Shown here: piece by piece, positions 5,279 through 64,000 of the stretch | How positions within the stretch are numbered: the first letter of the stretch is position 1 | Layout: every line of letters starts with the position of its first letter | Source of the DNA: Gammaproteobacteria bacterium | Lineage (GTDB): Bacteria > Pseudomonadota > Gammaproteobacteria > Natronospirales > DASSBR01 | Direction: 5' to 3' | DNA length: 64,000 bases | Assembly (NCBI GenBank): GCA_035688265.1 | Contig: DASSNE010000056.1 | Coordinates: forward strand, 4,255 to 68,254 | The notes under the pieces: model-generated | Told to the model about the DNA's origin: nothing | Database searches by the model: none | Seen by the model: the letters and a program-made list of their open reading frames with translations, nothing else | Translations under genes and position numbers: made by a program

Positions 5279-5332
5279 CTGCGAAGTTTATCAGCCACCT
5301 CTCTCGCGCCTTTCCACCGGCTGTTGGATATA

Positions 5333-5362
5333 TTGACAACACCTTGGCAGTGTTGTTACTAT
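5333..5362 (+). promoter_or_regulatory. Sigma70-like promoter (TTGACA-18-TACTAT), probably giving a leaderless transcript for the 5370 gene
   Basis: TTGACA at 5333-5338 and TACTAT at 5357-5362. The ATG at 5370 lies 7 nt after the -10 with no SD. Nested inverted repeats sit at 5322-5331/5361-5370 and 5336-5342/5350-5356. Confidence 0.45.
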
Positions 5363-5369
5363 CTCCAAC

Positions 5370-5672: not shown

Positions 5673-5994
5673 CGTTTCGTCGGTTGAAGAAACGAAGCGA
5701 CAACTGGCCGCCGCCTTTCGCGGCGAGAAGCAAGGGAATCATATCTCGTTCGCGTCCGTCGAGCTCCTGTGGAAAGTGCTCTCCGCGAAGCGTTGGGAGT
5801 TGCTCAAGGCAATGACCGGTCAGGGCCCCATGACGATTCGCGAGACCGCACGGCGGGTCGGGCGCGACGTGAAGGCGGTGCATGGCGATGTGCACGCGCT
5901 GCTGAATGCCGGCGTATTGGACAAAACCGAGGACGGCAAGATTGTTTTTCCCTACGATGCCGTGCATGTTGATTTCACCGTGAAAGCGGCCTGA
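5653..5994 (+). CDS. Winged-helix DNA-binding protein, putative cognate antitoxin/regulator
   Basis: ATG at 5653 with GGAGG at 5641-5645. HTH core: ELLKAMTGQGPMTIRETARRVGRDVKAVHGDVHALLNAGVLD. The upstream part of the track ORF (5509..) is out-of-context sequence inside the previous gene. Confidence 0.55.
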   Translation: METVTISVSSVEETKRQLAAAFRGEKQGNHISFASVELLWKVLSAKRWELLKAMTGQGPMTIRETARRVGRDVKAVHGDVHALLNAGVLDKTEDGKIVFPYDAVHVDFTVKAA

Positions 5995-6024
5995 CAACCT
6001 CGTTCCCCCGAACTGGGAGTTATC

Positions 6025-48776: not shown

Positions 48777-48817
48777 GGCTCTGCACGGAAATAGGCTTTC
48801 ATTCTAACAAGACCGCA

Positions 48818-48908
48818 AGTAGCTAGTGCCTAGTCGCCAGGAGCGAGTGAAGAGAAAAAATCACCCTTCTGTGACTCAGTCCTGGCGACTCAGCACTCAG
48901 TCCTGGCC
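48818..48908. repeat. Heptad-periodic palindromic repeat (same family as 27452-27530)
   Basis: AGTAGCT AGTGCCT AGTCGCC AGGAGCG ... A-rich loop ... GTGACTC AGTCCTG GCGACTC AGCACTC AGTCCTG. The arm AGTGCCTAGTCGCCAGGA (48824-48841) pairs with TCCTGGCGACTCAGCACT (48880-48897). Confidence 0.5.
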
Positions 48909-48959
48909 CGATAGGGACCTCACCTATAACCGCACGCCTGTCTCCGGTAAAATGCACGG

Positions 48960-49469
48960 ATGACCAAGGACGCCAAACCGCTCGTCGGCATCATCATGGG
49001 TTCGCAGTCGGACTGGGACACGCTCCGGCATGCCGCCGACACCCTCGCTACACTAGGCGTGCCGCACGAAAAGCGGGTGGTATCGGCCCATCGCACGCCC
49101 GACCTGCTGTTCGAATACGCCGAAGGCGCGGCCGCGCGCGGCATCCAGGTGATCATCGCCGGCGCCGGCGGCGCGGCGCACCTGCCGGGCATGACCGCCG
49201 CCAAGACGCAGCTGCCGGTGCTCGGCGTGCCGGTCGAGTCGCGCGCGCTCAAGGGGCTCGACTCGCTGCTGTCGATCGCGCAAATGCCTGCCGGCGTGCC
49301 CGTGGGGACATTGGCGATCGGCAAGGCCGGCGCGATCAACGCCGCCCTGCTCGCCGCCTCGATTCTGGGCCTCTCGCATCCGGAGATCTCCGCGGCCCTA
49401 ATGCAGTATCGCAGCAAACAAACCGAACGCGTGCTGTCTCAACCGGAACCGCAGGACAAGGCCCGCTAA
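48960..49469 (+). CDS. purE: N5-carboxyaminoimidazole ribonucleotide mutase
   Basis: IIMGSQSDW ... SAHRTP ... [13 protein letters not shown]. Confidence 0.95.
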
Positions 49470-49500
49470 CCTCTCACCCCTGACCTCTTACCCTTATATT

Positions 49501-50592
49501 ATGCAAACCATCGGCATCATTGGCGCAGGCCAGCTCGGCCGCATGATGGCGCTCGCCGGCTACCCGCTCGGCCTGCGCTTCGTGTTTCTGGACAAGGACG
49601 CCGGAACCCCGGGCGGCCAGGTCGGCGACATCATTGTCGGCGCGTTCGATGATTCGGCCAAGCTCGCGGAACTGGCGGAGCGGGCCGACATACTGACCTT
49701 CGACTTTGAAAACGTTCCGGCCGGGCCACTCGCGCCCATTGCCGACAAGATGCCCGTATGGCCGCCGGCCGATGCGCTTGAAACCGCCCAGGACCGGCTG
49801 CTCGAAAAGCGCCTGTTCGTCGCCCAAGGCCTGGCGACGCCGCAGTTCGAGCCGGTCGATACGCTCGCCGAACTCAAGACAGCCGTCGACAAGATCGGCC
49901 TGCCCGCGGTGCTGAAAACCCGCCGCCTGGGCTACGACGGCAAGGGCCAGCGCATGCTGCGCGAGCCGGGCGACATCGAACCGGCCTGGAATGACCTCGG
50001 CGGCGTGCCGCTGATCCTCGAGCAGTTCATCGAATTCGACCGCGAAGTCTCGATCGTCGGCGTGCGTTCGACCGGCGGCGAATGCCGGTTCTACCCGCTC
50101 GCCCACAACACCCACCACCACGGCATCCTGCATCACTCGATCGCGCCGTACGTGGACGCGGACTTGCAGGCGAAGGCCGAAGGCCATTCGCGCACGCTGA
50201 TGGAGCATTTCGGCTATGTGGGCGTGCTGACGATTGAATTCTTCGTCAAGGGCAGCAACCTGATCGCCAACGAAATCGCGCCGCGCGTGCACAACTCCGG
50301 CCACTGGACTATTGAAGGCGCCGAAACCAGCCAGTTCGAAAATCATATCCGCGCGGTTGCCGACCTGCCGCTGGGCGACACGAAGCCGATCGGGCACTCG
50401 GCGATGGTGAACTTCCTGGGCGAGATGCCGCCGCTCGACGAGGTCCTGAAGATCCCCGGCGCGCACTACCACGACTACGGCAAGAGCCCCCGCCCCGGCC
50501 GCAAGTTGGGGCATTGCACATTGCGGGCGGCGACACGGGACGAACTCGATGCGCGGTTCGAACAACTGCGTTTGGTTATGAACCCTGCATAG
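49501..50592 (+). CDS. purK: N5-carboxyaminoimidazole ribonucleotide synthase
   Basis: IGIIGAGQLGRM, ATP-grasp blocks, and NEIAPRVHNSGHWT. Confidence 0.9.
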   Translation: MQTIGIIGAGQLGRMMALAGYPLGLRFVFLDKDAGTPGGQVGDIIVGAFDDSAKLAELAERADILTFDFENVPAGPLAPIADKMPVWPPADALETAQDRLLEKRLFVAQGLATPQFEPVDTLAELKTAVDKIGLPAVLKTRRLGYDGKGQRMLREPGDIEPAWNDLGGVPLILEQFIEFDREVSIVGVRSTGGECRFYPLAHNTHHHGILHHSIAPYVDADLQAKAEGHSRTLMEHFGYVGVLTIEFFVKGSNLIANEIAPRVHNSGHWTIEGAETSQFENHIRAVADLPLGDTKPIGHSAMVNFLGEMPPLDEVLKIPGAHYHDYGKSPRPGRKLGHCTLRAATRDELDARFEQLRLVMNPA

Positions 50593-50605
50593 CCCACCCT
50601 CTTAC

Positions 50606-50725
50606 TCCCTCTCCCTTCGGGAGAGGGTTGGGGTGAGGGTGCCCAGTAGCGGCAGCGCTTGTTATACCTCACGTTGTGGCGAAGCCGAACCCTCACCCCC
50701 AGCCCCTCTCCCGAAGGGAGAGGGG
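50606..50725. repeat. Inverted pair of REP-like elements (CCCTCTCCC-TTCG-GGGAGAGGG + GGGGTGAGGGT type)
   Basis: Copy 1 at 50606-50640 and copy 2 at 50689-50725 in inverted orientation. Each contains its own 9-bp hairpin. Translations give the common ...PSPEGRG.../...GEGWGEG... repeat peptides. Confidence 0.65.
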
Positions 50726-50775
50726 AGCAAGAGAATTTGCCGCGCGCCCGACCGGCGGCTCATAATGACCTTTAG

Positions 50776-52689
<1,914 letters not shown>

Positions 52690-52722
52690 AAGCCGATAAC
52701 CAACGCGAAAAGGAGCTTCGCC

Positions 52723-53103
52723 ATGATAAATCCCGTCAGAAACCAGATTGTCTGGGTCGACATCCCGGTCACCGACCTCGATCGGGCGATCGATTTTTAC
52801 TCCGCCGTGCTGGGCGACAAGGTGGTGCGCGCCGACGCCAACGGCGTCGAGATCGGCGTGCTGCCGCACGCGGACAACGGCGCGTCAGGCTGCCTGTACG
52901 TCTCCGAGGACTATCCGCCCACCACCCACGGGCCGTTGATCTACCTGAACGTCGACGGCCGCATCGACGATGCCGAACTGGCCGCCGACCGCCACGGCGG
53001 CAAGATGATTGAGCCGCGGGCGCAGATCGGTGAGCATGGCTGGCGCGTGATCTTCATCGACCCGGAGGGCAACCGCATCGCGCTGCACTCGCAAACGGCA
53101 TAG
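52723..53103 (+). CDS. VOC/glyoxalase-family protein
   Basis: 126 aa: IVWVDIPVTDLDRAIDFYSAVLG ... IFIDPEGNRIALHS. Confidence 0.75.
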   Translation: MINPVRNQIVWVDIPVTDLDRAIDFYSAVLGDKVVRADANGVEIGVLPHADNGASGCLYVSEDYPPTTHGPLIYLNVDGRIDDAELAADRHGGKMIEPRAQIGEHGWRVIFIDPEGNRIALHSQTA

Positions 53104-53262
53104 TGCACTGCGCCGTAATTGGCGGCGCTTTCTCGCGAGCGAATTTTTGTGACTGGCAAGGCGCGGCGACGAGTCATAGCCGTAGCTATGGCGAGGAGCT
53201 GCAACGCCGCCAGGCGCAAAAAGGCGCCGCGAAAAGCTCGTTAATTGCGGCGTAGTGCACTA
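53101..53262. repeat. MITE-like element with 20-bp terminal inverted repeats
   Basis: TAGTGCACTGCGCCGTAATT (53101-53120) versus the reverse complement of AATTGCGGCGTAGTGCACTA (53243-53262) matches 18 of 20. Central palindrome CATAGC-CGTA-GCTATG (53175-53190). Confidence 0.55.
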
Positions 53263-53297
53263 CAATACGCACTTTTCCTTAGTTCAAGAGGTCAAAG

Positions 53298-53972
53298 ATG
53301 GCGGCAGCGACAGCGGCCGGGATGGACTATGCCCGGCGGATGATGGTGGAGCGCCAGATTCGCACCTGGGACGTGCTCGACCGGCATGTGCTCAACCTGC
53401 TCGAGGAAATGCCGCGCGAGCGCTTCGTGCCGGCGCATCATCGCGGCCTCGCCTACGCGGATACCGAAATCCCGCTCGGCGACGGCCAGATCATGATGGC
53501 GCCGAAAGTCGAGGGCCGCATGCTGCAGGCGCTGGACGTCCAAACCGGCGACTCGATCCTGGAAATCGGCACCGGCAGCGGCTTTATCACCGCCTGTCTT
53601 GCGAGTCTCGGCCGCGAAGTCCTTTCCTGCGACATTCGCGATGCCTTCTTCGGCGGGGCGCGCGCCGCGCTGCATGACCTCGGCCTGGACGAGCAGGTCG
53701 AACTCCTGCACCAGGATGCCGCCAACCTCAACTGGACCGATCGCCGTTTCGACGTCATCTGTGTCACCGGCTCGCTGCCGGTGCTCGACCCGAGCTTCGC
53801 CGACCGCCTGGAAATCGGCGGCCGGCTGTTCGTCGTCGTCGGCCAGGCGCCGGCGATGGAAGCGCTGCTGCTGACCCGCGTCGACGAGAATGAATGGGCG
53901 CGCGAAAGCCTGTTCGAGACCGTGCTGCCGGCGCTCGACAACGTCGCGGTACCCTCGCCGTTCCGCTTCTGA
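53298..53972 (+). CDS. Protein-L-isoaspartate O-methyltransferase-like protein
   Basis: Motif I ILEIGTGSGF, RFDVICVTGS, and a PCMT-like N-terminus (MVERQIRTWDV). Confidence 0.8.
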   Translation: MAAATAAGMDYARRMMVERQIRTWDVLDRHVLNLLEEMPRERFVPAHHRGLAYADTEIPLGDGQIMMAPKVEGRMLQALDVQTGDSILEIGTGSGFITACLASLGREVLSCDIRDAFFGGARAALHDLGLDEQVELLHQDAANLNWTDRRFDVICVTGSLPVLDPSFADRLEIGGRLFVVVGQAPAMEALLLTRVDENEWARESLFETVLPALDNVAVPSPFRF

Positions 53973-54289
53973 TGCGCTCGATCGACGCCACCGGACTCGC
54001 CGGCCTGCTGCAACAGGATGCCGATCTGACGTTCCTCGACGTACGCGAGCCGTGGGAGCACCAGATGGCGTCGGTTCCCGAGGCCACGCTGATCCCGATG
54101 GGCGAAGTCGCCGGCCGGCTGGATGAGCTGGACCCGGAGCGCACGACGGTGGTGATGTGCCATCATGGCAATCGCAGCGCCACCGTCGCACGGTTCCTGG
54201 AGCAGCATGGCTTCCGCGACGTGGTGAATCTCGAAGGGGGCATCGATGGCTGGTCGGAAAACGTTGATCCGGGCGTGCCGCGGTACTGA
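53972..54289 (+). CDS. Single-domain rhodanese (sulfurtransferase)
   Basis: 105 aa. LDVREPWE, the active-site loop CHHGNRS, and LEGGIDGW. The start overlaps the upstream stop by 1 nt. Confidence 0.85.
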   Translation: MRSIDATGLAGLLQQDADLTFLDVREPWEHQMASVPEATLIPMGEVAGRLDELDPERTTVVMCHHGNRSATVARFLEQHGFRDVVNLEGGIDGWSENVDPGVPRY

Positions 54290-54313
54290 CCCCGAAATCC
54301 TGTTGCATTAGAC

Positions 54314-55027
54314 GTGGTCGTGATCGGGCTTGCGGTAGCAGCGATTATCGCGGTTGCCGCCATCATCTCTGCCGCCCTGTTTTACCGGCAGGCGCGGCAT
54401 CTCCAGCGCGAGCTGCACCGCCTCGAAGCGCGCCGCCTGCGCAGCCAGCTCAATCCGCATTTCCTGTTCAACGCGCTCAACGCCGTCTCCGAACTCGGCT
54501 ACCACGATCCGGGCGCGGCGGATCGCACCGTCACGCAGCTCGGCAACCTGCTCCGGATTTCACTCGACACCGACAACCGCTACGAAATCTCGCTGAAGGA
54601 CGAACTGGACATCCTCCGGCGCTATCTCGACATCCAGCAGACGCTGCTGCAGAGCCGGCTGCAGATTCATTTCGACATCGCGCCGGACACGCTGGCCGCC
54701 CGCGTGCCGAGCATGATCCTGCAACCGCTGGCGGAAAATGCCGTCACCCATGGCATTACGCCGACCCGCGGCGGCTGCATCGACATCGCCGCGCGCCGCG
54801 AAGGCGACCGACTGGTGCTCGAAATCCGCGACGACGGGCCCGGTCTCACCAACGCCGGCTGCGAGCGTGTGGGCCTGGGCAACACCCGCAGCCGCCTTGC
54901 GCACCTGTACGGCCGTGCGCAAGACTTTGCCCTCAAGAGTGGTGCCGATGGCTGGACCGTCGCGCGCATCAGTCTCCCGTTCCACGAAGCCTGGGCCTAC
55001 GATGAAGACGCGCACGCTAATTATTGA
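54314..55027 (+). CDS. Minimal LytS/YehU-type sensor histidine kinase (single N-terminal TM, no sensor domain)
   Basis: H-box LRSQLNPHFLFNALNAV (His_kinase type) plus HATPase_c (LAENAVTHG ... RDDGPGL ... GLGNTRSRL). An in-frame stop at 54287 limits the N-terminus to about 25 hydrophobic residues. Confidence 0.8.
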   Translation: MVVIGLAVAAIIAVAAIISAALFYRQARHLQRELHRLEARRLRSQLNPHFLFNALNAVSELGYHDPGAADRTVTQLGNLLRISLDTDNRYEISLKDELDILRRYLDIQQTLLQSRLQIHFDIAPDTLAARVPSMILQPLAENAVTHGITPTRGGCIDIAARREGDRLVLEIRDDGPGLTNAGCERVGLGNTRSRLAHLYGRAQDFALKSGADGWTVARISLPFHEAWAYDEDAHANY

Positions 55028-55715
55028 CGACATGCCGCTGTCGCGGGCGCGCACGCGGCGCTACCTCGAAGACGAAACCGACATCGAGATCGTCGGCGAA
55101 TGCGGCGACGGCGAAGCCGCGATCGCCGCAATTGCCGAGCAGCGTCCGGACCTGGTCTTTCTGGACGTACAGATGCCCGGCATGAGCGGCTTTGAACTGC
55201 TGGAAAAGGTGCCGGCCGACGAACGCCCGGCAGTGGTCTTTATTACCGCGTTCGACGAGTTCGCCGTGCCCGCGTTCGAAGTCCGCGCGGTGGATTACCT
55301 GCTCAAACCCTTCGACCACGAGCGGCTCAAGCAGGCGCTCGCGCGCGTGCGCGAACGACTGAAGACCGGCGAAAATCACAAAAAACCGCTCAGCCGCTTC
55401 GCGGTCAAGTCGGTGGGCAAGACCGTGTTTGTCGATGTGGACGCGGTGGACTGGATCGAAACCGCCGGCAACTACCTTTGCCTGCACGCCGGCGGCGACA
55501 CCCACCTCGTCCGCGAAACGATGGCGCAGGTCGAGTCGCAACTCGACCCGCAGCGCTTCGCGCGCATTCACCGCTCGACCATCGTGCGCATCGATCGCAT
55601 CCAGTCGATGCAGCCGCTGTTCAACGGCGATCGCTGCGTCACTCTCATCGACGGCACGCAACTCACCATGAGCCGGTCGTACCGCGACAAGGTCGACGCG
55701 ATTCTGCACGCCTGA
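55002..55715 (+). CDS. LytTR-family response regulator
   Basis: Receiver (LIIDDMPLSR ... LVFLDVQMPGMSG ... LLKP) plus a LytTR DNA-binding domain (IDWIETAGNYLCLH ... FARIHRSTIVRIDRI). Overlaps the kinase gene by 26 nt. Confidence 0.9.
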   Translation: MKTRTLIIDDMPLSRARTRRYLEDETDIEIVGECGDGEAAIAAIAEQRPDLVFLDVQMPGMSGFELLEKVPADERPAVVFITAFDEFAVPAFEVRAVDYLLKPFDHERLKQALARVRERLKTGENHKKPLSRFAVKSVGKTVFVDVDAVDWIETAGNYLCLHAGGDTHLVRETMAQVESQLDPQRFARIHRSTIVRIDRIQSMQPLFNGDRCVTLIDGTQLTMSRSYRDKVDAILHA

Positions 55716-55719
55716 GCCC

Positions 55720-55773
55720 CACGACTCGTCCCTCGATCGCCACGATTCATCCCACCACCGCCGCGATTCGTCA
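55720..55773 (+). promoter_or_regulatory. Three phased direct repeats, candidate LytTR operator upstream of the transporter operon
   Basis: CACGACTCGTCC (55720), CACGATTCATCC (55741) and CGCGATTCGTCA (55762). The start-to-start spacing is exactly 21 bp both times. A possible -10 TAAATT lies at 55805-55810 and the RBS GAGGA at 55829-55833. Confidence 0.5.
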
Positions 55774-55838
55774 CATTTCGGTTGTCGGTCGATGAGTGCC
55801 GCCTTAAATTGGCGGCGCAAATCGAATTGAGGACCTGA

Positions 55839-57068
55839 ATGGACAAGAAAGAAGCACTCGACGCGCTCCGGATCGACCGCGACGCCGAGCCGCCGCAGAA
55901 TGGCCGCGGCGGCCGCATCGCGGGTGCCATCTTTGCGGTGATCGTCCTGATCGGCGGCGCCGCAGCATGGGCTTTCCTCGCGCCGCACGCGATGGCGGTC
56001 GAAACCGCGCCGGTCGAAGTCACCGGCGGCGGCGCGGCGAGTAACGCGGGCAGCGTGCTGAATGCCTCCGGCTATGTCGTCGCCGAGATGTCCACGACCG
56101 TCGCCTCGCAAACCGTCGGCATGATCAAGCAGGTGCTGGTCACCGAAGGCATGCACGTCCACAAGGGGCAGGTGCTGGCGTACCTCGAGGACGACGCGGC
56201 CCGCGCCAGGGTCGCGACCGCCAAAAGCCAGGTGCAGGCCAACAAGGCTGCCGTCGCGCAGGCGCAGGCGAAGCTCGCCGAAGACCGGCTGACGCTCAAG
56301 CGCACCCGGTCGATGGCCGAGCAGCGTCTGACCAGCGCGGCCGACCTTGACCAGGCCGAGGCCGCCGTCAATATGGACGAGGCCGCTGTCAAGCAGGCCC
56401 AGGCACAGGTTGCAGTCGCAGAAGCCAATCTCCGGTCCGCCCAAATCGAACTCGGCTACACCACTATCCGCGCACCGTTCACCGGCGTTGTCACCGAAAA
56501 GTACGCGCACCCGGGCGAAATGATCTCGCCCGCGGCGGTGGGCGGTTTTACCAAGACCGGCGTGTGCCAACTCGTCGATATGAATTCGCTCGAAATCGAT
56601 GTGGACGTCAACGAAGCCTATATCCAGCGAGTCCACGACGGCATGCGAGTCGAAGCGGTGCTGGACGCCTACCCCGACTGGCGCATCCCGGCGCACGTGA
56701 TCAGCGTAGTACCGACCGCGAACCGCGAGAAGGCGACTGTCAAGGTGCGTATCGCATTCGACAAGCTCGACCCGCGCATCGTGCCGGAGATGGGCGTGCA
56801 GGTCTGGTTTTACGAGAAGGCGCCGAAGAAAGCCGAGCACACGCCGGTCGCGCTGCTGGTGCCGTCGAAAGCCGTTCACGGCGGCGGCACCGACCGCTAT
56901 GTGTTCCTGCTCGCCGACGGCCACGCCGAGCGCCGCAGCGTCACCGTCGGTCCCGAGCAAAACGGCAAGGTCACCGTGCTGTCCGGCCTGTCCGGCGGGC
57001 AGCGCGTCATCGTCTCGTCACCGAAGCCGCTGCGCGACGGTATTGCAGTTGAAGCGAAGCAGATCTAA
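55839..57068 (+). CDS. MacA/HlyD-type periplasmic adaptor (membrane fusion protein)
   Basis: N-terminal TM anchor, a long coiled-coil hairpin (AKSQVQANKAAVAQAQAKLAEDRL ... AAVKQAQAQVAVAEANL), and IRAPFTGVV lipoyl/beta-barrel blocks. Confidence 0.85.
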   Translation: MDKKEALDALRIDRDAEPPQNGRGGRIAGAIFAVIVLIGGAAAWAFLAPHAMAVETAPVEVTGGGAASNAGSVLNASGYVVAEMSTTVASQTVGMIKQVLVTEGMHVHKGQVLAYLEDDAARARVATAKSQVQANKAAVAQAQAKLAEDRLTLKRTRSMAEQRLTSAADLDQAEAAVNMDEAAVKQAQAQVAVAEANLRSAQIELGYTTIRAPFTGVVTEKYAHPGEMISPAAVGGFTKTGVCQLVDMNSLEIDVDVNEAYIQRVHDGMRVEAVLDAYPDWRIPAHVISVVPTANREKATVKVRIAFDKLDPRIVPEMGVQVWFYEKAPKKAEHTPVALLVPSKAVHGGGTDRYVFLLADGHAERRSVTVGPEQNGKVTVLSGLSGGQRVIVSSPKPLRDGIAVEAKQI

Positions 57069-57105
57069 ACCGAACCAGATTGAAGACAGCAACAAGGAGA
57101 TAGCC

Positions 57106-57840
57106 ATGTCCGCCACTGAAGCCACTGTCGAGAAAGAAACCACCGCCACCGCCGAACCGGCGCTGGTGCAACTGAAAGATGTCGTCAAGACCTACCAGCG
57201 CGGCTCGGAAACCGTGCAGGTGCTGCAGAAACTCAGCCTCGACGTGCCGCGCGGTGATTTTCTCGCGCTGATGGGCCCGTCCGGCTCCGGCAAGACGACG
57301 TTGATGAACCTGCTCGGCGGCCTCGACAAGCCGACCTCGGGCCAGGTCATCATCGACGATCAGCCGATTCACCAGCTTTCCGACAGCGCCCTGGCAAAAT
57401 GGCGGGCCAGGCACGTCGGCTTTGTCTTCCAGCTCTACCACCTGCTGCCGGTGCTGAACGCCGAGCGCAACATCGAGCTGCCCCTGCTGCTGACCAAGCT
57501 GTCGCACAGCGAGCGCAAAAAGCGCGTCGCCGCCGCGTTGTCGCTGGTCGGCCTGTCGGAACGCGGCAAACACAAGCCGAGCGAGCTGTCGGGTGGCCAG
57601 GAACAGCGCGTCGGCATCGCCCGCGCAATCGTCACCGACCCCACGATCCTGCTCTGCGACGAGCCGACCGGCGACCTCGACCGCAAGGCCGGCGACGAAA
57701 TCCTCGAGCTGCTGCAGGTGCTCAACGAGGAACATGGCAAGACCATCGTGATGGTCACCCACGATCCCCACGCCGCCGCCTGTGCCAAGCGCACATTGTT
57801 CATGAACAAGGGCGTGTTGAGCGAAGAGCCGGAAGCCTGA
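57106..57840 (+). CDS. LolD/MacB-type ABC ATPase (stand-alone NBD)
   Basis: AAGGAGA RBS. Walker A GPSGSGKTT, signature LSGGQEQR, Walker B LLCDEPTGDLD, and H-loop VTHD. Confidence 0.9.
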   Translation: MSATEATVEKETTATAEPALVQLKDVVKTYQRGSETVQVLQKLSLDVPRGDFLALMGPSGSGKTTLMNLLGGLDKPTSGQVIIDDQPIHQLSDSALAKWRARHVGFVFQLYHLLPVLNAERNIELPLLLTKLSHSERKKRVAAALSLVGLSERGKHKPSELSGGQEQRVGIARAIVTDPTILLCDEPTGDLDRKAGDEILELLQVLNEEHGKTIVMVTHDPHAAACAKRTLFMNKGVLSEEPEA

Positions 57841-57842
57841 TC

Positions 57843-58991
57843 ATGTTCGCGCTCGTCTGGACCAACTTCACCCGCCGCAAAGGCCGGCTCGCGCTGACGC
57901 TCGCATCGGTGCTGATTGCCTTCCTCCTGTTCGGCATGCTGATGGCGGCGCGGCAGGTGTTCAACCCGCAGCTCAGCAAAAGTGACCAGTCGCGGCTGAT
58001 CACCGTCAACAAGGTCAGCCGCGGCACGCCGTTACCCATCGCCTATGCGCAGCGGATCCGGCAGGTGCCGGGCATACGCGCGGCCGCTTACGCTACGTTC
58101 ATGCTCGGCTGGTACCAAAAGCGCGAAAACGCATTCGCCGTAATCGCCGCGCCGGCGAAGGGCCTGTTCGACACGTTCCCGGTCACCGTCAAACCGGAAC
58201 AAAAGAAGGCTTGGCTCAACGACCGCGGCGGTGCGCTCGCCACGCCGGCGCTGATGAAGGCCTACGGCTGGAAAATCGGCCAGCACGTGCCGGTCATGTC
58301 CACGCTGCAGAAGAAGGACGGCGGTTCCACCTGGGACGTCACCATCGACGGAGTAGCCACGAACAAGGACCATCCGGATGCCAAGGTGCAGCAGTTGATC
58401 GTCCATTACGATTACGTCAATGAGGGCCGGGCAAGCGGCAAGGACACCGCCATGATGTTCTTCGAGGTGCCAGACGATCCGGTCAAGGCGACCTCGGTTG
58501 CTATGGCAATCGACAAGATATTCGAGAACGCGTCACCGCAAACCAAGACTTCGACGACCAAGTCGGTGGTCCATAACGCCATCCGGCAGGCCGGGGACAT
58601 CGGCGGCATCATTACCGACGTCGCCATCGCCGTGTTTTTCTCAATGCTGCTGGTCGTCGGCGCAATCATGTTCCAGTCCGCACGTGAGCGGCATACGGAA
58701 TTCGCGGCGCTACGCGCGCTCGGCTTCACCCGCGGCTCCATTTTGCGCATGGTCATCGGTGAATCGCTATTGACTTGCCTGATCGGCGGGCTGATTGGCA
58801 TCGGCATTGCCGCGGGGCTCATCGCGATTTTGCCAAACGCACTCAGCAACTTCCCGTCGTCGATGACTCTCACCGGCGTCGCGGTGCTGGTCGCCGTCGG
58901 CCTGATGATTGCTTTCGGATTGATCGCGGCAGCCGCACCCGCCGGTCAACTCTGGCGGCTGTCGATTCGCGAAGCGCTCGGGAGGACGTAA
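57843..58991 (+). CDS. FtsX-fold ABC permease, type A (pair 1)
   Basis: 382 aa: TM1, a roughly 220-aa periplasmic domain, then 3 TM. N-terminus MFALVWTNFTRRKGRLALTLASVLIAFLLFG and FtsX block ERHTEFAALRALGFTR. Confidence 0.85.
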   Translation: MFALVWTNFTRRKGRLALTLASVLIAFLLFGMLMAARQVFNPQLSKSDQSRLITVNKVSRGTPLPIAYAQRIRQVPGIRAAAYATFMLGWYQKRENAFAVIAAPAKGLFDTFPVTVKPEQKKAWLNDRGGALATPALMKAYGWKIGQHVPVMSTLQKKDGGSTWDVTIDGVATNKDHPDAKVQQLIVHYDYVNEGRASGKDTAMMFFEVPDDPVKATSVAMAIDKIFENASPQTKTSTTKSVVHNAIRQAGDIGGIITDVAIAVFFSMLLVVGAIMFQSARERHTEFAALRALGFTRGSILRMVIGESLLTCLIGGLIGIGIAAGLIAILPNALSNFPSSMTLTGVAVLVAVGLMIAFGLIAAAAPAGQLWRLSIREALGRT

Positions 58992-58992
58992 C

Positions 58993-60171
58993 ATGCTGAG
59001 CCAGACTTTCACCCTGTTCAAACTGAACCTGCGCAACGCATTCAGCCGGCCGGTTTTACCGCTGATCGTCATCATCGGCTTCTTTGCGGTGGTGCTGGTA
59101 CTCGTATCGGTGCTCTCCATCGGCCAGGGCCTCGGCCAAACCTTCAGCCGCGCGAATGCGACGGATGTCGCAATGGTCATGTCGAACGGGGCATTCACCG
59201 AATCACGCAGCAATTTGACTGAAGATGCGGTGCACGCCATCGCGTCGAAACCGGGCGTCGCGCAAGGTGCCAACGGCCCGTTGGTGTCGCCGGAAGCCCT
59301 GACCACCGTGATCGTGCCCAAGCGCGGCAGCGGCATCGACAGCAACGTCGTGCTGCGCGGCGTTACCGCTGACGCCTTCAAGGTGCACAACAAGGTTCGC
59401 ATCATTGCGGGGCGCCGCTTCAAGACCGGCGTCAATGAAGTCATCGTCGGCAGGCAAGCCGTTAACGAGTACCAGAACCTGAATATCGGCGACACGGTAC
59501 ACATCGGCAAGGGCGACTGGAAGGTCGTCGGCATCTTCGCCGCCGGCGGCAACCTCCGCGAATCTGAAATCTGGGCGGACGCGCGCCGCGTGCAGGATGC
59601 GATGCACATGGGCAATTCCTACTCCGATGCATGGGTGCAACTGACCTCGCCGGCCGCGTTCAAGCAATTCAAGGCCAAGGTGGAGAAGGATCCGCGCCTG
59701 AACGTGCAGGCGAAAACAGAAAAGGACTATTACGACAATCTCGCCCAAGGCGCGACCGGTATCGTTGCGGTCGTCGGCTATGCGATCGGCATTCTGATGG
59801 CACTCGGCGCGATTATCGGTGCAATCAATCTGCTTTACACCAATCTCGCCGCCCGCCTCGGGGAGATGGCGACGCTGCGCGCCGTCGGCTATCGGCGCGC
59901 ACCGGTGTTGATCGCCACCCTGCTCGAAGCGCTGACGTTCGCGCTGATCGGCGGCATTATCGGGGGCGGCGTCGCGTACGCCGCGTTCGACGGCTACCAG
60001 GCCGGGACGCTCGCGGGCGGCATTCAGCAGGTGGCGTTCCAGTTCGCGGTCACGCCGGGCCTGCTCGTCGGCGGCATCGTCTTCGCGCTGATCATGGGCT
60101 TCTTCGGCGGATTGTTCCCGGCAATTCGTGCGGCGCGGCTGCCGATCACGAAAGCGCTCCGGGAGGCCTGA
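58993..60171 (+). CDS. FtsX-fold ABC permease, type B (pair 1)
   Basis: 392 aa. LNLRNAFSRP, GPLVSPE, SPAAFKQFKAKVEKDPRLNV, EMATLRAVGYRR, and C-terminus FPAIRAARLPITKALREA. Starts 1 nt after the previous stop. Confidence 0.85.
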   Translation: MLSQTFTLFKLNLRNAFSRPVLPLIVIIGFFAVVLVLVSVLSIGQGLGQTFSRANATDVAMVMSNGAFTESRSNLTEDAVHAIASKPGVAQGANGPLVSPEALTTVIVPKRGSGIDSNVVLRGVTADAFKVHNKVRIIAGRRFKTGVNEVIVGRQAVNEYQNLNIGDTVHIGKGDWKVVGIFAAGGNLRESEIWADARRVQDAMHMGNSYSDAWVQLTSPAAFKQFKAKVEKDPRLNVQAKTEKDYYDNLAQGATGIVAVVGYAIGILMALGAIIGAINLLYTNLAARLGEMATLRAVGYRRAPVLIATLLEALTFALIGGIIGGGVAYAAFDGYQAGTLAGGIQQVAFQFAVTPGLLVGGIVFALIMGFFGGLFPAIRAARLPITKALREA

Positions 60172-60176
60172 GCGGA

Positions 60177-61322
60177 ATGAAATTCGTGCCGCTGATCTGG
60201 CGCAACCTGCTGCGCAAAAAAACGCGCACCGTGTTTACGCTGTTGTCGGTGCTGTGCACGTTTCTGCTGTTCGGCTTCCTGATGGCCGTGCGCCAGGGTT
60301 TTGTGACCGGCGCGCGGTTGCCGGGCGCGGACGTCATTTTCACGATGCCGAAAGCCGGCGGCAGCGAGGGCATGCCGCAAAGCTACGGCGCCCGCATCGC
60401 TGCCGTTGCCGGCGTCGCCGATGTCATGCGCATCGGCGGCGCCGGGTTCTATTTCCAGACGCGAAAACAAACCGTCGGCGTCGGGGCCGTGGAACCCGCC
60501 ATGCTGTTTCGGATGTTCCCGGCACTCAACGTGCCGCGCGCTCAGCGCGAGAAGTGGGAGCACGACCGCATCGGCGCGATCGTTCGCGACGACATTGCCA
60601 AGCGATTCGGCTGGAAGGTCGGCGACCATATCCCGTTGTTGTCCTACGAGCAGCCGGGCAAAACGCTGGAAGTCAATATCGACGGCATCCAGGACACGCA
60701 TACTGACAGCATTCACGTCGGCTTCGGGCAGTTGTACGTCCATTTTGATTATCTGAGCACGTGGTCGGGCAAGGACTCGGTCGATGCCTTTGTCGAGCGA
60801 GCGGCGAACCCGCGGGAGACTTCCGCCGTCGCAAAACGGATTAATGCGGCGCTCGCCAATTCGTCCGTGCCATCCAAATCGGTTCCGATGCAGGCCATGG
60901 TGCAAAGCGTCATTTCCCGCTTCGGCGACATTGGCGCAATCGCAATCGCGATTGCTATCGCCGCCCTCATCGGCATGCTGATCGTCACTGCCAACACGAT
61001 GGCGCAAAGTGTGCGCGAACGGGTCGCGGAACTGGCGGCGATGCGCGCGGTGGGCTTCACGCGGTCGCAACTCGTGTGGCTGGTGCTCGGCGAGTCGCTC
61101 TGTCTGACCGCCATTGGCGGCCTGATCGGGCTCGGCCTGGCCTGGATCACGACCGTGCTGCTCGGCCCGGCGTTTTCGAAGACGATTCCGGGACTCTATT
61201 TCTCGCCGGCCGTCATCGCCATCGGCATCGGGCTGATCGTGCTGCTCAGCCTGGTGGCTGCGCTGTCGCCGAGCATTCACGCCGTGCGCCTGCAGGTCGC
61301 CTCGGCGCTGGGGGTCCGCTGA
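60177..61322 (+). CDS. FtsX-fold ABC permease, type A (pair 2)
   Basis: 381 aa. N-terminus MKFVPLIWRNLLRKKTRTVFTLLSVLCTFLLFG and ERVAELAAMRAVGFTR. Confidence 0.85.
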   Translation: MKFVPLIWRNLLRKKTRTVFTLLSVLCTFLLFGFLMAVRQGFVTGARLPGADVIFTMPKAGGSEGMPQSYGARIAAVAGVADVMRIGGAGFYFQTRKQTVGVGAVEPAMLFRMFPALNVPRAQREKWEHDRIGAIVRDDIAKRFGWKVGDHIPLLSYEQPGKTLEVNIDGIQDTHTDSIHVGFGQLYVHFDYLSTWSGKDSVDAFVERAANPRETSAVAKRINAALANSSVPSKSVPMQAMVQSVISRFGDIGAIAIAIAIAALIGMLIVTANTMAQSVRERVAELAAMRAVGFTRSQLVWLVLGESLCLTAIGGLIGLGLAWITTVLLGPAFSKTIPGLYFSPAVIAIGIGLIVLLSLVAALSPSIHAVRLQVASALGVR

Positions 61323-61324
61323 CG

Positions 61325-62500
61325 ATGCAAAGTATCAATGTCATCGCCCTCAATTTGCGCAATCTTCGCGCGCGCGCGAGCGTGGCGAGCGGCGCGGTGC
61401 TGGGGTTCGCAGCGGTGGTCGCGGTACTGGTCGCCGCGCTGTCGATCAGCGCAGGGTTCCGCGCCGCCTTCGGCGCGACCGGCGCCGACGATGTCGCCGT
61501 CGTCCTGAGCGGCAAAGCCGATACCGAGGCCACCAGCACCCTGAGCGCCGATGACATCCATGCGATTGCGTCGCTGCCCGGTGTCGCGCACACCGCTGAC
61601 GGCCCGCTTGCCGCGCCCGAAATGGTCGGCACGCTGGACGTGAACTACAAGCAGAGCGACAAGGATGCCAGCATCGTCTTTCGCGGCGTGACCGATAGCG
61701 CGCGCCGCCTCCGCCCCGCCGTCCAGCTGATCAAGGGTCGCTGGTTCAAGCCGGGGCTCAACGAACTGGTGGTCGGAGCAGCTGCGGCGGCGCGCTTCAA
61801 AGATCTGGCCATTGGCAAAAGCATCAAGTACCGCGGCAGACAGTGGCAGGTCGTGGGCATCTTTTCTGCCGGCCGGAGCGTCTTCGGTAGCGAAGCCTGG
61901 ACCGACGTCAACGTGCTGCAGGACGCCCATAAACGGCCCAATCTGTATTCGGCCGACTTTGTGAAGGTGACGTCGCCGGCGGCGTTCGCCGGCTTCAATA
62001 AAGCCGCCACACACGATCCGCGGCTCGATGTCAGCGTCAAGCGGGCGAGCGATTACTACGCGGAGCAGGCGCGCGGCCTGGGGAAATTTATTGCCGTCGC
62101 CGGTGCGATTATTGCCGGCGTCATGGGCATTGCCGCGATCTTCGGCGCCTTGAACACCATGTATACGATGGTATCGGTGCGCGGCCGCGAAATCGCCACA
62201 CTGCGCGCGCTGGGGTTCGGTCGGCTGCCGGTGCTGCTGTCGGTGGTCGTCGAGGCGCTGGTGCTGGGCCTGCTGGGCGGTATACTGGGCGGCATCATCG
62301 CGTGGTTGCTGTTCAATGGCTACCAGGCGAGCACCTTCAATACGTCCAACGCCGGTCAGGTGGCGTTCGCGTTTGCGGTCACGCCGACCGCCATCGGAGC
62401 CGGCATCGCGTTCGCGCTGATCCTCGGTCTGATTGGTGGCTTTTTCCCGGCCATCCGTGCCGCGCGGTTACCGGTGGCGACGGCGTTGCGGGAAACCTGA
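61325..62500 (+). CDS. FtsX-fold ABC permease, type B (pair 2)
   Basis: 391 aa. LNLRNLRARA, GPLAAPE, SPAAFAGFNKAATHDPRLDV, EIATLRALGFGR, and C-terminus FPAIRAARLPVATALRET. Confidence 0.85.
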   Translation: MQSINVIALNLRNLRARASVASGAVLGFAAVVAVLVAALSISAGFRAAFGATGADDVAVVLSGKADTEATSTLSADDIHAIASLPGVAHTADGPLAAPEMVGTLDVNYKQSDKDASIVFRGVTDSARRLRPAVQLIKGRWFKPGLNELVVGAAAAARFKDLAIGKSIKYRGRQWQVVGIFSAGRSVFGSEAWTDVNVLQDAHKRPNLYSADFVKVTSPAAFAGFNKAATHDPRLDVSVKRASDYYAEQARGLGKFIAVAGAIIAGVMGIAAIFGALNTMYTMVSVRGREIATLRALGFGRLPVLLSVVVEALVLGLLGGILGGIIAWLLFNGYQASTFNTSNAGQVAFAFAVTPTAIGAGIAFALILGLIGGFFPAIRAARLPVATALRET

Positions 62501-62504
62501 CGCG

Positions 62505-63662
62505 ATGAAATTCTTCCCCCTCATCTGGAGCGCTTTCACGCGGCGCAAGGCGCGCACCGTGTTCACGTTCCTGTCGGTCGTGGTCGCGTTCGTGCTGTTC
62601 AGCGTGCTGGCGGCGGTGCGCCAGGGGATGGTCGGACAGTTGAGTATGGTGAATGCGCAGCGGCTGCAGGTGGTGGCGAAGGCTTCGCCGGGTTCGCTTA
62701 TGCCGGTGCATTACGTGTCAAAGATCGCCCGGGTCCCGGGGGTGGTGGCCGTGTCGCCGATGATCGGAATCGGCGGTCATTATCGGGATCCCAAAAACCG
62801 GCTGAACGTGCTGTTCGTGAATGCCCGGACGATCGGCAAGATTTTCCCCGGCTTCAAAATGGGCGGACATCAGAGTGCCCTGCTGAAGGATCAGCAGGCT
62901 GCCATTGCGGGCCCGGTACTTGCCAGGCGCATGGGCTGGCATGTCGGCCAGACGATTCCGGTGCAATCGAGCACCCCGAAGAAAGACGGCAGCACGACAT
63001 GGTATTTCCACCTCGTCGGCATCTATCACGCCGACTTGCCGAAGGCCTATCAATCGTTCTTCATTGCGCATTATCAGTATTTCAATCAGGCGGTGGCCTC
63101 GCAGGAATTCAGAAACACGGCCGGCCAGTTCTTCGTGCGCGTCAATGACGCGCGCCATATTTCGCAAATCGCGACCGCGATAGATGCGCAGTTCGCGAAC
63201 TCATCGCCGCAGACGTATACCCAGTCGGTGCGCATGCAGGTGCTGTCGTACCTGCATGCCTTCGGTGATGTCGGCGCGATCGTTATCGGCGTCGGCGTGG
63301 CGGTCTTTTTCACGCTGCTGTTGATCGTGACCAACACGATGGGCCAATCGATTCGTGAACGCACGGCCGAGTTCGCCGTGCTGAAGTCGTTCGGCTTCAA
63401 TCGCCTGCGCGTGGCGGTACTTGTGTTGGCCGAAGCGCTGCTGCTGACGATCGTCGGCGGCATCGCCGGCATCGGGATCGGTTACGTCGTGGTCGGCCTG
63501 CTGACACCCAGCCTGAGCAACGCGCTCCAGACCTTCGGCCTCACGAGTGCCGCGACCGCCTGGGGCGTCGCGCTGGCAGTCATATTCGGCTTGCTGGCGA
63601 GCCTGTTCCCGGTACGGCAGGTCACGCGCCTGCGTACTGCTGCCGCGCTCGGAAAACGGTGA
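62505..63662 (+). CDS. FtsX-fold ABC permease, type A (pair 3)
   Basis: 385 aa. N-terminus MKFFPLIWSAFTRRKARTVFTFLSVVVAFVLFS and ERTAEFAVLKSFGFNR. Confidence 0.85.
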   Translation: MKFFPLIWSAFTRRKARTVFTFLSVVVAFVLFSVLAAVRQGMVGQLSMVNAQRLQVVAKASPGSLMPVHYVSKIARVPGVVAVSPMIGIGGHYRDPKNRLNVLFVNARTIGKIFPGFKMGGHQSALLKDQQAAIAGPVLARRMGWHVGQTIPVQSSTPKKDGSTTWYFHLVGIYHADLPKAYQSFFIAHYQYFNQAVASQEFRNTAGQFFVRVNDARHISQIATAIDAQFANSSPQTYTQSVRMQVLSYLHAFGDVGAIVIGVGVAVFFTLLLIVTNTMGQSIRERTAEFAVLKSFGFNRLRVAVLVLAEALLLTIVGGIAGIGIGYVVVGLLTPSLSNALQTFGLTSAATAWGVALAVIFGLLASLFPVRQVTRLRTAAALGKR

Positions 63663-63667
63663 AAAGT

Positions 63668-64000
63668 ATGGCCTGGTTAAAGGAAACCTTGTCGGTCTGC
63701 GGCTGGAACTTCCGCATGGCGGCGGCGCGATTCCAGTCTTCGCTGATCGCGATCGTCGGCTTTCTCGGCGTCGTGCTGGTGGTGGTCGCCCTGCTGTCGA
63801 TTCGAGCGGGATTTCAAAGCGTACTGTCGCACACCGGCTCGGACAGCGTGGCGATCGTCACTTACCAGGGCGCGGGCTCGCTCAGTCGCCAGGCGGTCAC
63901 CGTAATCGGCCAGGCGCCCGGGGTCGCGCATGGCCCGAACGGCCCGCTCGCGATGGGCGACTACACCGCCTCGGCGCGCGCGGTCCAGCGCGGCACGGGC
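63668..64000 (+). CDS. FtsX-fold ABC permease, type B (pair 3), 3' end outside the window
   Basis: Not in the ORF track because it has no stop inside the window. My translation from the ATG at 63668 is open for 111 codons: MAWLKETLSVCGWNFRMAAARFQSSLIAIVGFLGVVLVVVALLSIRAGFQ ... APGVAHGPNGPLAMGD. This aligns with the N-termini of the two type B genes. Confidence 0.75.
   Translation, partial: MAWLKETLSVCGWNFRMAAARFQSSLIAIVGFLGVVLVVVALLSIRAGFQSVLSHTGSDSVAIVTYQGAGSLSRQAVTVIGQAPGVAHGPNGPLAMGDYTASARAVQRGTG

What the first reader, a model, noticed from the sequence alone, without database searches (positions are those of the whole stretch)
54314..64000. Locus-level hypothesis: a Gram-negative, Bce-like transporter-as-sensor module built from LytS/LytTR parts
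The pieces combine as follows: a kinase with no input domain, a LytTR regulator, a phased LytTR-type operator directly in front of the transporter operon, and a MacB/FtsX-fold transporter with exchangeable permease pairs. In Firmicutes, BceAB-BceRS modules use the FtsX-fold transporter as the actual sensor and induce their own expression in response to peptide antibiotics (flux sensing). Here the same logic appears to be assembled from a different two-component family and a tripartite (adaptor-containing) pump. The four genes pcm-like, rhodanese, kinase and regulator are co-directional with gaps of 24 nt or less, so the regulators may ride on a housekeeping transcript.
Basis: inference. Interest (0 to 1): 0.7.

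Follow-up and report, generated by a model that had tools for sequence, protein, structure and literature searches.

The report
Sensor-less kinase controlling a multi-permease efflux pump
An uncultured soil gammaproteobacterium carries a conserved gene module in which a histidine kinase with no sensor domain and its LytTR regulator sit directly in front of, and almost certainly switch on, a MacB-type efflux pump that has one ATPase and three different permease pairs; whether the pump itself acts as the sensor is plausible but untested.

Summary

Comparative evidence:
- Every relative of the kinase examined at 48% identity or more (about 11 contexts, differing flanks) has kinase-regulator-operator-transporter.
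- Two outgroup kinases lack the transporter, and only about 2-5 of 80 broad LytS-family loci have one nearby.
- A matrix built from the window's three repeats alone ranks the regulator-transporter spacer first in 7 of 8 related loci.
- One-TM kinases fall in three to four clades among four-TM relatives, so TM1-3 was probably lost repeatedly while the linkage stayed.

So the wiring is well supported. The Bce-like claim that the transporter is the sensor remains inference. It is favoured by the missing input domain and strict linkage. It is weakened because the TM helix is the least conserved part of the kinase, and because most relatives of this transporter family have no such two-component system. 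The module fails the Bce membership tests and is only a functional analogue. I found no paper describing it. I rate it a new variant of a known kind, of moderate interest.

The parts
53298..53972 (+). pcm-like methyltransferase (224 aa), first gene of the co-directional run
   Evidence: PCMT E 2.4e-24, but below the NCBIfam equivalog cut-off (121 vs 188 bits). A terminator-like site at 53126-53141 precedes it. No operator lies upstream.
53972..54289 (+). single-domain rhodanese (105 aa)
   Evidence: Rhodanese E 7.3e-18. ATGA overlap with pcm-like.
54314..55027 (+). minimal LytS-type histidine kinase (237 aa): one N-terminal TM helix, then DHp and catalytic domain, no input domain
   Evidence: PF06580 plus HATPase_c. 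H49, N142, D173/G175/G177 and G187 are invariant. One TM at residues 2-24. AF2 model pLDDT 79 with a continuous helix over residues 2-44.
55002..55715 (+). REC-LytTR response regulator (237 aa)
   Evidence: Response_reg E 2.6e-26 and LytTR E 1.6e-22. Closest named family is BtsR, below its cut-off.
55720..55774 (+). operator: three 13-nt direct repeats (starts 55720, 55741, 55762) in 21-nt phase
   Evidence: Conserved in L088, L081, L083, L084, L086, L082, L093 and L173, and weakly in L090.
55782..55810 (+). putative sigma-70 core promoter: TTGTCG, 17-nt spacer, TAAATT
   Evidence: Positions. Both hexamers are conserved at the same distance from the last repeat in 8 aligned promoters. The generic scan scored it below threshold. 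No transcription start has been mapped.
55789..55825 (.). 15-nt inverted repeat flanking the putative -10; role unknown
   Evidence: Similar arms occur in L088 and L081.
55839..57068 (+). periplasmic adaptor (membrane fusion protein, 409 aa)
   Evidence: TIGR01730 RND_mfp 209 bits; MacA 124 bits, below cut-off. RBS GAGGA at 55829-55833.
57106..57840 (+). the only ABC ATPase gene of the operon (244 aa)
   Evidence: ABC_tran E 2.2e-35. Best named matches are LolD, the MacB NBD and YbbA, all below their cut-offs.
57843..60171 (+). permease pair 1 (P1 type A 57843-58991, P2 type B 58993-60171)
   Evidence: FtsX / MacB_PCD. Four TM helices with a ~210-aa periplasmic domain. P1 AF2 model pLDDT 82; Foldseek best hits are 5xu1, LolE, MacB and HrtB.
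60177..62500 (+). permease pair 2 (P3 type A 60177-61322, P4 type B 61325-62500)
   Evidence: Orthologous pair present in L088 and absent from L081.
62505..64000 (+). permease pair 3 (P5 type A 62505-63662; P6 type B from 63668, cut by the window end)
   Evidence: In L088 (kinase 94% identical) the sixth permease is complete and is followed by an OEP (TolC-like) gene.

Best explanation
This is a self-contained, inducible tripartite efflux module.

Wiring (well supported). The phosphorylated LytTR regulator binds the three phased repeats at 55720-55774. It activates the promoter next to them (TTGTCG-17-TAAATT). That promoter drives one operon: adaptor, one ATPase, three heterodimeric A/B permease pairs of the MacB/LolCE fold and, just beyond the window, a TolC-like outer-membrane channel. 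The kinase and regulator are probably made constitutively from the pcm-rhodanese transcript. No terminator separates the regulator from the adaptor gene, so read-through could give the pump a basal level.

Sensing (inferred). The kinase is only a TM helix running straight into the phosphorylation helix, so it cannot bind an external ligand by itself. The most likely source of its signal is the activity or conformation of the pump it controls, as in Bce modules of Firmicutes.

Permease pairs (inferred). The three pairs differ most in their periplasmic domains and probably give alternative substrate specificities on a shared ATPase and adaptor. The substrate is unknown.
For: Wiring:
- Domain assignments.
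- Operator unique in the window.
- A matrix trained only on the window's three repeats puts the best paired site of each 9-21 kb related locus inside the regulator-transporter spacer in 7 of 8 loci, on the + strand, at 20-21 nt spacing.
- Repeats, -35 and -10 are the conserved columns in 8 aligned promoters.
- The geometry fits the LytTR rule of 9-11 nt repeats with 11-13 nt spacers (PMC4847170).

Linkage:
- Kinase-regulator-(adaptor)-ATPase-A-B is found in all contexts looked up in the kinase clade: L088, L081, the P0008 contig, L082, L083, L084/85, L086/87, L090-92 and L093/94.
- It is also found in L173, which was reached independently from the permease side.
- Outgroup kinases P0075 and P0076 lack it.
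- Only about 2-5 of 80 broad LytS-family loci have a transporter nearby.

Sensing by a partner:
- One TM helix continuous with the DHp.
- Long relatives have 4 TM helices with loops of 20 aa or less, so no periplasmic domain.
- One-TM forms fall in three to four clades among four-TM forms in an unbootstrapped NJ tree, which suggests repeated loss of TM1-3 with linkage and catalytic motifs kept.
- No + strand terminator-like site lies between regulator and adaptor.
- Precedent: BceS-BceAB (PMC4513084, PMC10314905).
Against: - There is no direct evidence for kinase-transporter contact, for induction, or for any substrate.
- The TM helix is the least conserved part of the kinase: 35-54% identity against 79-99% for linker plus DHp in orthologues. 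That looks more like a plain membrane anchor than a specific sensing interface.
- The wider A/B transporter family mostly lacks this two-component system. About 20 metagenome loci with enough upstream sequence have unrelated genes there. The pump therefore does not need the kinase.
- L083 lacks the adaptor, so the adaptor cannot be the universal partner.
- No RNA data exist. Only DNA metagenome runs hold the sequence. The promoter and transcript structure are therefore predictions.
Confidence: 0.45

Rival explanations
1. The wiring is the same, with the regulator activating the pump operon, but the kinase senses on its own. Its TM helix would report a membrane property such as thickness, packing or a lipid-soluble compound, or its cytoplasmic DHp/catalytic part would bind a metabolite. 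The pump would be output only.
For: All the wiring evidence applies. The poorly conserved but always hydrophobic TM helix fits a generic membrane probe or anchor. The linker plus DHp is extremely conserved, at 99% when the catalytic domain is 90%, and could be a cytoplasmic input surface. The transporter family works without this system in most genomes.
Against: A 23-residue helix with 1-3 external residues offers little specificity. A generic membrane sensor would not be expected to stay strictly linked to one transporter type across about 11 contexts while outgroup kinases are not linked. Probable repeated loss of TM1-3 without loss of the module argues that the membrane part is not where specificity lies.
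Confidence: 0.3
2. The module does not defend against foreign antibiotics. It exports or extracts an endogenous envelope or secreted product such as a lipid, glycolipid, lipoprotein-like cargo or secondary metabolite. The two-component system matches pump level to that cargo. This rival concerns the substrate and is compatible with either sensing mode.
For: MacB-fold relatives include LolCDE, HrtBA, YbbAP and DevBCA-like exporters of endogenous cargo (Foldseek hits; weak devC and lolCE matches). The module sits in an envelope neighbourhood with the OEP, waaA and LPS core genes in L081, L084 and L086. In L084/L086 the OEP operon carries its own operator.
Against: No biosynthetic genes or precursor-peptide gene adjoin the operon in the window or in relatives. 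Flanking genes differ between lineages, whereas dedicated exporters usually travel with biosynthesis genes. NCBIfam scores for Lol, Dev and Dar families are far below their cut-offs.
Confidence: 0.2
3. The adjacency is fortuitous. The two-component system controls other genes, and the repeats are chance sequence.
For: Two-component genes are often found next to unrelated operons. The generic promoter scan found nothing in the spacer.
Against: The gene order is conserved in about 11 contexts with different flanks. The operator and core promoter are conserved down to 50% kinase identity. There is no other strong paired site in 64 kb.
Confidence: 0.03

Closest known systems
BceRS-BceAB antimicrobial-peptide sensing and detoxification modules of Firmicutes (PMC4513084, PMC10314905, PMC11009047)
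   Same: Both combine a kinase without an extracellular sensor domain, a MacB/FtsX-fold (type VII) ABC transporter encoded next to it, and a regulator whose target is the transporter's own promoter. Foldseek also relates P1 to BceB (E about 4e-7).
   Different: Here the kinase is of the LytS type (PF06580) with 1 TM helix and no linker domain, whereas BceS has 2 TM helices. The regulator is LytTR, not OmpR-type. The permeases are about 385 aa with 4 TM helices in A/B pairs, whereas BceB is one 10-TM polypeptide. An adaptor and an outer-membrane channel are present. There are up to three permease pairs per ATPase. The host is a diderm gammaproteobacterium. The sensor role of the transporter is untested.
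MacAB-TolC tripartite pump, and MacRS-MacABCsm of Stenotrophomonas maltophilia (PMC10295115)
   Same: Both have an adaptor, a MacB-fold permease and an outer-membrane channel. In S. maltophilia a two-component system also lies next to a MacAB-type operon that has its own channel gene.
   Different: MacB is a fused ATPase-permease homodimer. Here the ATPase is a separate gene and the permeases form heteropairs. MacABCsm is described as intrinsically expressed, and MacRS is divergently transcribed. No LytTR operator or multi-pair array is reported there.
LolCDE lipoprotein extractor
   Same: Both have one ATPase gene plus two paralogous 4-TM permeases of about 400 aa with a large periplasmic domain. 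LolE and LolC are among the best structural matches.
   Different: Lol has no adaptor or channel partner and is essential and housekeeping. NCBIfam lolCE scores are 35 bits against a cut-off of 362. Here there are three pairs under a two-component system.
LytS/LytTR systems BtsS-BtsR and YpdA-YpdB of E. coli (PMC4847170)
   Same: Both have a PF06580 kinase core, a REC-LytTR regulator (BtsR is the best NCBIfam match, 170 bits) and phased direct repeats before a single transporter target gene.
   Different: Those kinases carry large multi-TM input regions and respond to pyruvate. Their targets are secondary transporters for nutrient uptake, not an ABC efflux pump. The BtsR cut-off (246 bits) is not reached.

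Membership tests
Bce-type module (BceRS-BceAB) | Permease BceB is a single polypeptide with ten TM helices and a large extracellular domain between TM7 and TM8 (PMC11009047) | tested here: not met
   The permeases are 381-392 aa, with 4 TM helices and the large domain between TM1 and TM2. They are encoded as alternating A/B genes.
Bce-type module (BceRS-BceAB) | BceS-type intramembrane-sensing kinase (two TM helices, no extracellular domain) paired with an OmpR-type regulator (general knowledge; PMC11009047 for the kinase type) | tested here: not met
   The kinase also lacks an extracellular domain, but it belongs to the PF06580 family and has one TM helix. The regulator has a LytTR output domain.
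Bce-type module (BceRS-BceAB) | Signalling requires the transporter (flux sensing) (PMC4513084) | not testable with these tools
   Only indirect evidence is available: strict linkage and probable repeated loss of TM1-3.
LytS/LytTR two-component systems | Kinase with the PF06580 His_kinase phospho-acceptor region plus HATPase_c | tested here: met
   PF06580 E 3.8e-21 and HATPase_c E 2.2e-6. H, N and G boxes are invariant in the alignment.
LytS/LytTR two-component systems | Multi-TM N-terminal input region, as in LytS, BtsS and YpdA | tested here: not met
   There is a single TM helix, with 24 nt between the upstream gene and the start codon. Relatives have a 4-TM region that matches no Pfam family.
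LytS/LytTR two-component systems | Regulator with REC plus LytTR domains, binding two or more 9-11 nt repeats separated by 11-13 nt (PMC4847170) | tested here: met
   Domains. Three repeats at 21-nt phase, conserved in relatives. Binding itself was not tested.
MacAB-TolC type tripartite ABC pump (type VII ABC) | MacB fold: 4 TM helices with a periplasmic domain between TM1 and TM2 | tested here: met
   MacB_PCD and FtsX hits, topology, and the AF2 model with Foldseek hits to 5xu1, 5gko, 5lil, 5nik and LolCDE at E 1e-12 to 1e-15.
MacAB-TolC type tripartite ABC pump (type VII ABC) | ATPase fused to the permease, acting as a homodimer | tested here: not met
   The ATPase is a separate 244-aa gene. 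The permeases come as two types that are 17-23% identical and always in A-then-B order.
MacAB-TolC type tripartite ABC pump (type VII ABC) | Periplasmic adaptor and outer-membrane channel partner | tested here: inconclusive
   The adaptor is present. The channel gene lies beyond the window end. It directly follows the last permease in L088 and L081.
LolCDE | Equivalog-level similarity to LolC/LolE and LolD | tested here: not met
   lolCE 35 bits against a cut-off of 362. LolD 240 bits against 308.

The most novel reading that the evidence does not exclude
A diderm counterpart of Bce-type 'transporter as sensor' signalling has evolved independently from LytS/LytTR parts. A kinase reduced to one TM helix would read the working state of a tripartite MacB-type pump. 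Interchangeable permease pairs on one ATPase and adaptor would set both what is pumped and what is sensed. Probable repeated loss of the kinase's TM1-3 would be the evolutionary trace of sensing being handed over to the pump.
Probability: 0.35. Interest if true: 0.8.

Novelty: new variant of a known kind. Interest (0 to 1): 0.55.

Why it matters
Transporter-coupled sensing is well worked out only for Bce modules of Firmicutes. A conserved analogue in Gram-negative soil bacteria, built from other protein families and attached to a tripartite pump, would show that this control logic is convergent.

It would also offer a simple system for study. The kinase is a single TM helix joined directly to the phosphorylation helix, which makes it attractive for asking how a transporter's state is passed to a kinase.

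The one-ATPase, several-permease-pair layout raises a testable question about how type VII ABC pumps assemble and choose substrates.

On the practical side, the conserved operator (CACGryTCrTCmC repeats at 21 nt, followed by TTGTnn-17-TAAATT) gives a ready reporter for finding the inducers and substrates of an uncharacterised pump family that is widespread in soil metagenomes.

Tried and rejected
I used it as a background set, not as a set of relatives.
I redid it with database homologues.
- Sequencing-run search found only DNA metagenome runs and no RNA. There is therefore no transcript evidence, and I did not lay any reads.
- Rfam found no RNA family in 48000-64000.
- Literature searches for LytTR plus MacB or FtsX, for LytS plus intramembrane-sensing plus ABC, and for tolC plus isoaspartate found no description of this module or of the pcm-rhodanese-tolC linkage.
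- I looked for a dedicated regulator upstream of the transporter relatives that lack the two-component system. Only unrelated genes were there.
- Quorum-sensing or bacteriocin-type LytTR system: rejected. The kinase is LytS-type, and no small precursor ORF or biosynthetic gene is adjacent.
- Kinase truncated by a bad gene call: rejected. The upstream gene ends 24 nt before the start, and seven database homologues at 80-94% identity are 236-237 aa, with P0008 (69%) also 237 aa.
- Prediction of a kinase-permease complex was not possible.
Full report
**1. What is there**

The region holds twelve co-directional genes.

| Gene | Coordinates | Notes |
|---|---|---|
| pcm-like methyltransferase | 53298-53972 | |
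| rhodanese | 53972-54289 | 1-nt overlap with pcm-like |
| LytS-type kinase | 54314-55027 | 237 aa; PF06580 plus HATPase_c |
| REC-LytTR regulator | 55002-55715 | 26-nt overlap with the kinase |
| spacer | 55716-55838 | 123 nt |
| periplasmic adaptor | 55839-57068 | |
| ABC ATPase | 57106-57840 | the only ATPase gene |
| permeases P1-P6 | 57843 to window end | gaps of 1-5 nt |

P6 starts at 63668 and is cut by the window end.

The stated gaps of 24 nt or less among the first four genes are correct. A terminator-like site at 53126-53141 precedes pcm. No terminator-like site on the + strand lies between the regulator and the adaptor.

Sequence labels and run metadata point to an uncultured soil or rhizosphere gammaproteobacterium. 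Close relatives are labelled Gammaproteobacteria or Steroidobacteraceae MAGs.

**2. The kinase really lacks an input domain**

- The kinase has one hydrophobic helix at residues 2-24.
- About 24 further residues then lead to the phospho-accepting His49.
- The AF2 model (pLDDT 79) shows one continuous helix from residue 2 to 44.
- The catalytic H, N and G boxes are invariant across 17 relatives.
- The short form is not a gene-call artefact. The rhodanese gene ends 24 nt upstream. Seven database homologues at 80-94% identity are 236-237 aa, and P0008 (69%) is also 237 aa.
- Relatives come in two forms. Short forms have one TM helix. Long forms (about 355-390 aa) have four TM helices joined by loops of 20 aa or less, so they also lack a periplasmic domain.
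- In a neighbour-joining tree of the catalytic core, short forms fall in three to four clades interleaved with long forms. This suggests that TM1-3 was lost more than once. The tree has no bootstrap support values.
- Minimal forms are a small minority. About 6 of the best 150 cluster representatives are under 250 aa, in a family with about 103,000 representatives.

**3. The operator is real and conserved**

The spacer carries three repeats exactly 21 nt apart:
- CACGACTCGTCCC at 55720
- CACGATTCATCCC at 55741
- CGCGATTCGTCAC at 55762

No other exact match occurs in 64 kb. The paired pattern is over-represented, at 3 against 0.46 expected, and none of 100 shuffles reached 3.

Because the pattern was read from this site, the real test is independent. 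A weight matrix built from these three repeats alone was scanned over eight related loci of 9-21 kb, on both strands. The top paired site fell inside the regulator-transporter spacer in seven of them, on the + strand, at 20-21 nt spacing.

An alignment of eight promoters shows that the invariant columns lie in three places: the repeats, a TTGTnn hexamer, and a TAAAT(T) hexamer 17 nt further on. In the window these hexamers are TTGTCG at 55782-55787 and TAAATT at 55805-55810.

The geometry matches the published rule for LytTR regulators: 9-11 nt repeats separated by 11-13 nt, placed just upstream of the promoter (PMC4847170, PMC4227749). A distant Gemmatimonadaceae locus (L014) has GCCGTTCGTGAC twice, at 20 nt spacing, in the same place.

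**4. The transporter**

All permeases have one TM helix, a periplasmic domain of about 210 aa, and then three more TM helices.

- Type A (P1, P3, P5) barely hits the MacB_PCD profile. Its AF2 model (pLDDT 82) nevertheless matches Spr0694/0695, LolE, MacB, HrtB and YbbP at E 1e-10 to 1e-15. It matches BceB more weakly.
- Types A and B are 17-23% identical to each other.
- Paralogues within a type are 35-38% identical (A) or about 46% identical (B).
- The periplasmic domains have diverged the most, at 26-33% for type A.
- The pairs are therefore old paralogues, not recent duplicates.
- They are orthologous across genomes. Window pair 1 corresponds to L088 pair 1 and L081 pair 1. Window pair 2 corresponds to L088 pair 2 and is absent from L081. 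Window pair 3 corresponds to L088 pair 3 and L081 pair 2, and is close to L086 pair 3.
- Relatives carry one to three pairs behind a single ATPase gene.
- In L088 and L081 a TolC-like OEP gene follows the last permease. The same is expected just beyond this window.
- That A and B form a heterodimer, and that pairs are alternatives on a shared ATPase and adaptor, is inferred from gene order. A is followed by B in essentially all 80 metagenome loci, and LolC/LolE offers an analogy.

**5. Co-occurrence**

*From the kinase side.* Every context examined at 48% identity or more shows kinase-regulator-spacer-(adaptor)-ATPase-A-B:

| Context | Identity to window kinase | Notes |
|---|---|---|
| L088 | 94% | 3 pairs, then OEP |
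| L081 | 80% | 2 pairs, then OEP |
| P0008 contig | 69% | CLC channel gene inserted between regulator and adaptor |
| L083 | 57% | no adaptor |
| L084/85 | 54% | long kinase |
| L086/87 | 53% | long kinase |
| L093/94 | 53% | |
| L082 | 50% | different flanks |
| L090-92 | 48% | |

Controls:
- Two kinases of similar identity that fall outside the clade (P0075, P0076) have no such neighbour.
- Of 80 LytS-family loci at 47% identity or less, only about 2-5 have an adaptor, ATPase or FtsX gene nearby.

The wider family behaves differently. In 80 metagenome loci at 33-40% identity, the transporter is almost always a single adaptor-ATPase-A-B operon with unrelated upstream genes. The one exception is L173, which has the regulator and the operator.

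So the two-component system marks a sub-clade of a larger, otherwise unlinked pump family.

**6. pcm-like and rhodanese**

In the window no operator precedes pcm.

The pcm-like family is very large. In the one genome checked outside the kinase clade, Sedimenticola, it stands without rhodanese, OEP or the two-component system.

In L084 and L086, however, pcm-rhodanese-OEP forms a divergent operon preceded by its own copy of the same operator and promoter. There the channel, together with pcm and rhodanese, is probably co-induced with the pump.

The window lineage looks like a rearrangement of that layout, in which the channel gene moved to the end of the pump operon.

**7. Mechanism**

*Supported by sequence and comparison:* regulator, then phased operator, then pump operon.

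*Inferred:* the source of the signal. Four observations favour the pump as co-sensor:
- the kinase has no input domain;
- the TM helix couples rigidly to the DHp;
- TM1-3 was probably lost repeatedly while the module stayed intact;
- linkage is strict within the clade.

Two observations count against it:
- The TM helix is the fastest-evolving part of the kinase, at 35-54% identity against 79-99% for linker plus DHp.
- There are no interaction or expression data at all.

I put pump-as-sensor at about 0.45 and direct sensing by the kinase (in the membrane or the cytoplasm) at about 0.3. The substrate question, foreign antimicrobial or endogenous envelope cargo, is separate and remains open.

**8. 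Comparison and novelty**

The module works like a Bce module in its layout but fails every structural membership criterion: permease architecture, kinase family, regulator family, and the presence of an adaptor and a channel.

It is a LytS/LytTR system by its kinase core, its regulator and its operator, but it lacks the family's usual multi-TM input region. It is a type VII (MacB-fold) tripartite pump, but with a separate ATPase and LolCE-like heteropairs.

A two-component system beside a MacAB-type pump is known in Stenotrophomonas (PMC10295115). Five full-text searches found no description of the LytS/LytTR-plus-MacB combination or of the multi-pair layout.

I classify it as a new variant of a known kind.

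Noticed in passing
window 50605-50727: A palindromic element of about 120 nt lies between purK and thiC. Its outer arms, CCCTCTCCCTTCGGGAGAGGG, are 21/21 nt complementary, and it looks like a REP/MITE-type element. No TPP riboswitch reaches the Rfam gathering score upstream of thiC.
   Followed up: partly
window 55789-55825: A 15-nt inverted repeat (80% complementary) has the putative -10 TAAATT in its loop. Similar arms flank the -10 in L088 and L081. It may be a second regulator's site or may have no function.
   Followed up: partly
L084 9800-9925 and L086 9790-9905 (minus strand): A second copy of the operator and promoter sits upstream of a divergent pcm-like-rhodanese-OEP operon. This suggests that the outer-membrane channel, and with it pcm and rhodanese, are co-regulated with the pump in relatives that have long kinases.
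   Followed up: partly
JGI contig carrying P0008 (no DNA held), genes at 5003-6802: A CLC chloride-channel gene with a CBS domain is inserted between the regulator and the adaptor gene in a 69%-identical relative. L083 has a CLC gene at its contig start.
   Followed up: no
window 54314-54385 (kinase residues 1-24): The TM helix is 35-54% identical among orthologues whose linker plus DHp is 79-99% identical. An alanine-rich small-residue pattern (A-V/I-A-A) is kept.
   Followed up: yes
window 54992-55027: The C-terminal kinase tail (residues 226-237, sequence WAYDEDAHANY in the window) is 100% conserved in five orthologues and recurs in long-form relatives. Part of it is encoded by the 26 nt that overlap the regulator's start, so the conservation may reflect dual coding.
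   Followed up: no
window 57843-58991 versus L088 13522-14673: P1 is only 73% identical between the window and L088. The other four comparable permeases are 84-90% identical, so P1 evolves fastest.
   Followed up: no
L093 13835-15756 and L094 13722-16159: A transposase fragment is followed by a second adaptor gene, and in L094 also by a second ABC ATPase gene, directly downstream of the module. This hints at mobility or recombination of pump cassettes.
   Followed up: no
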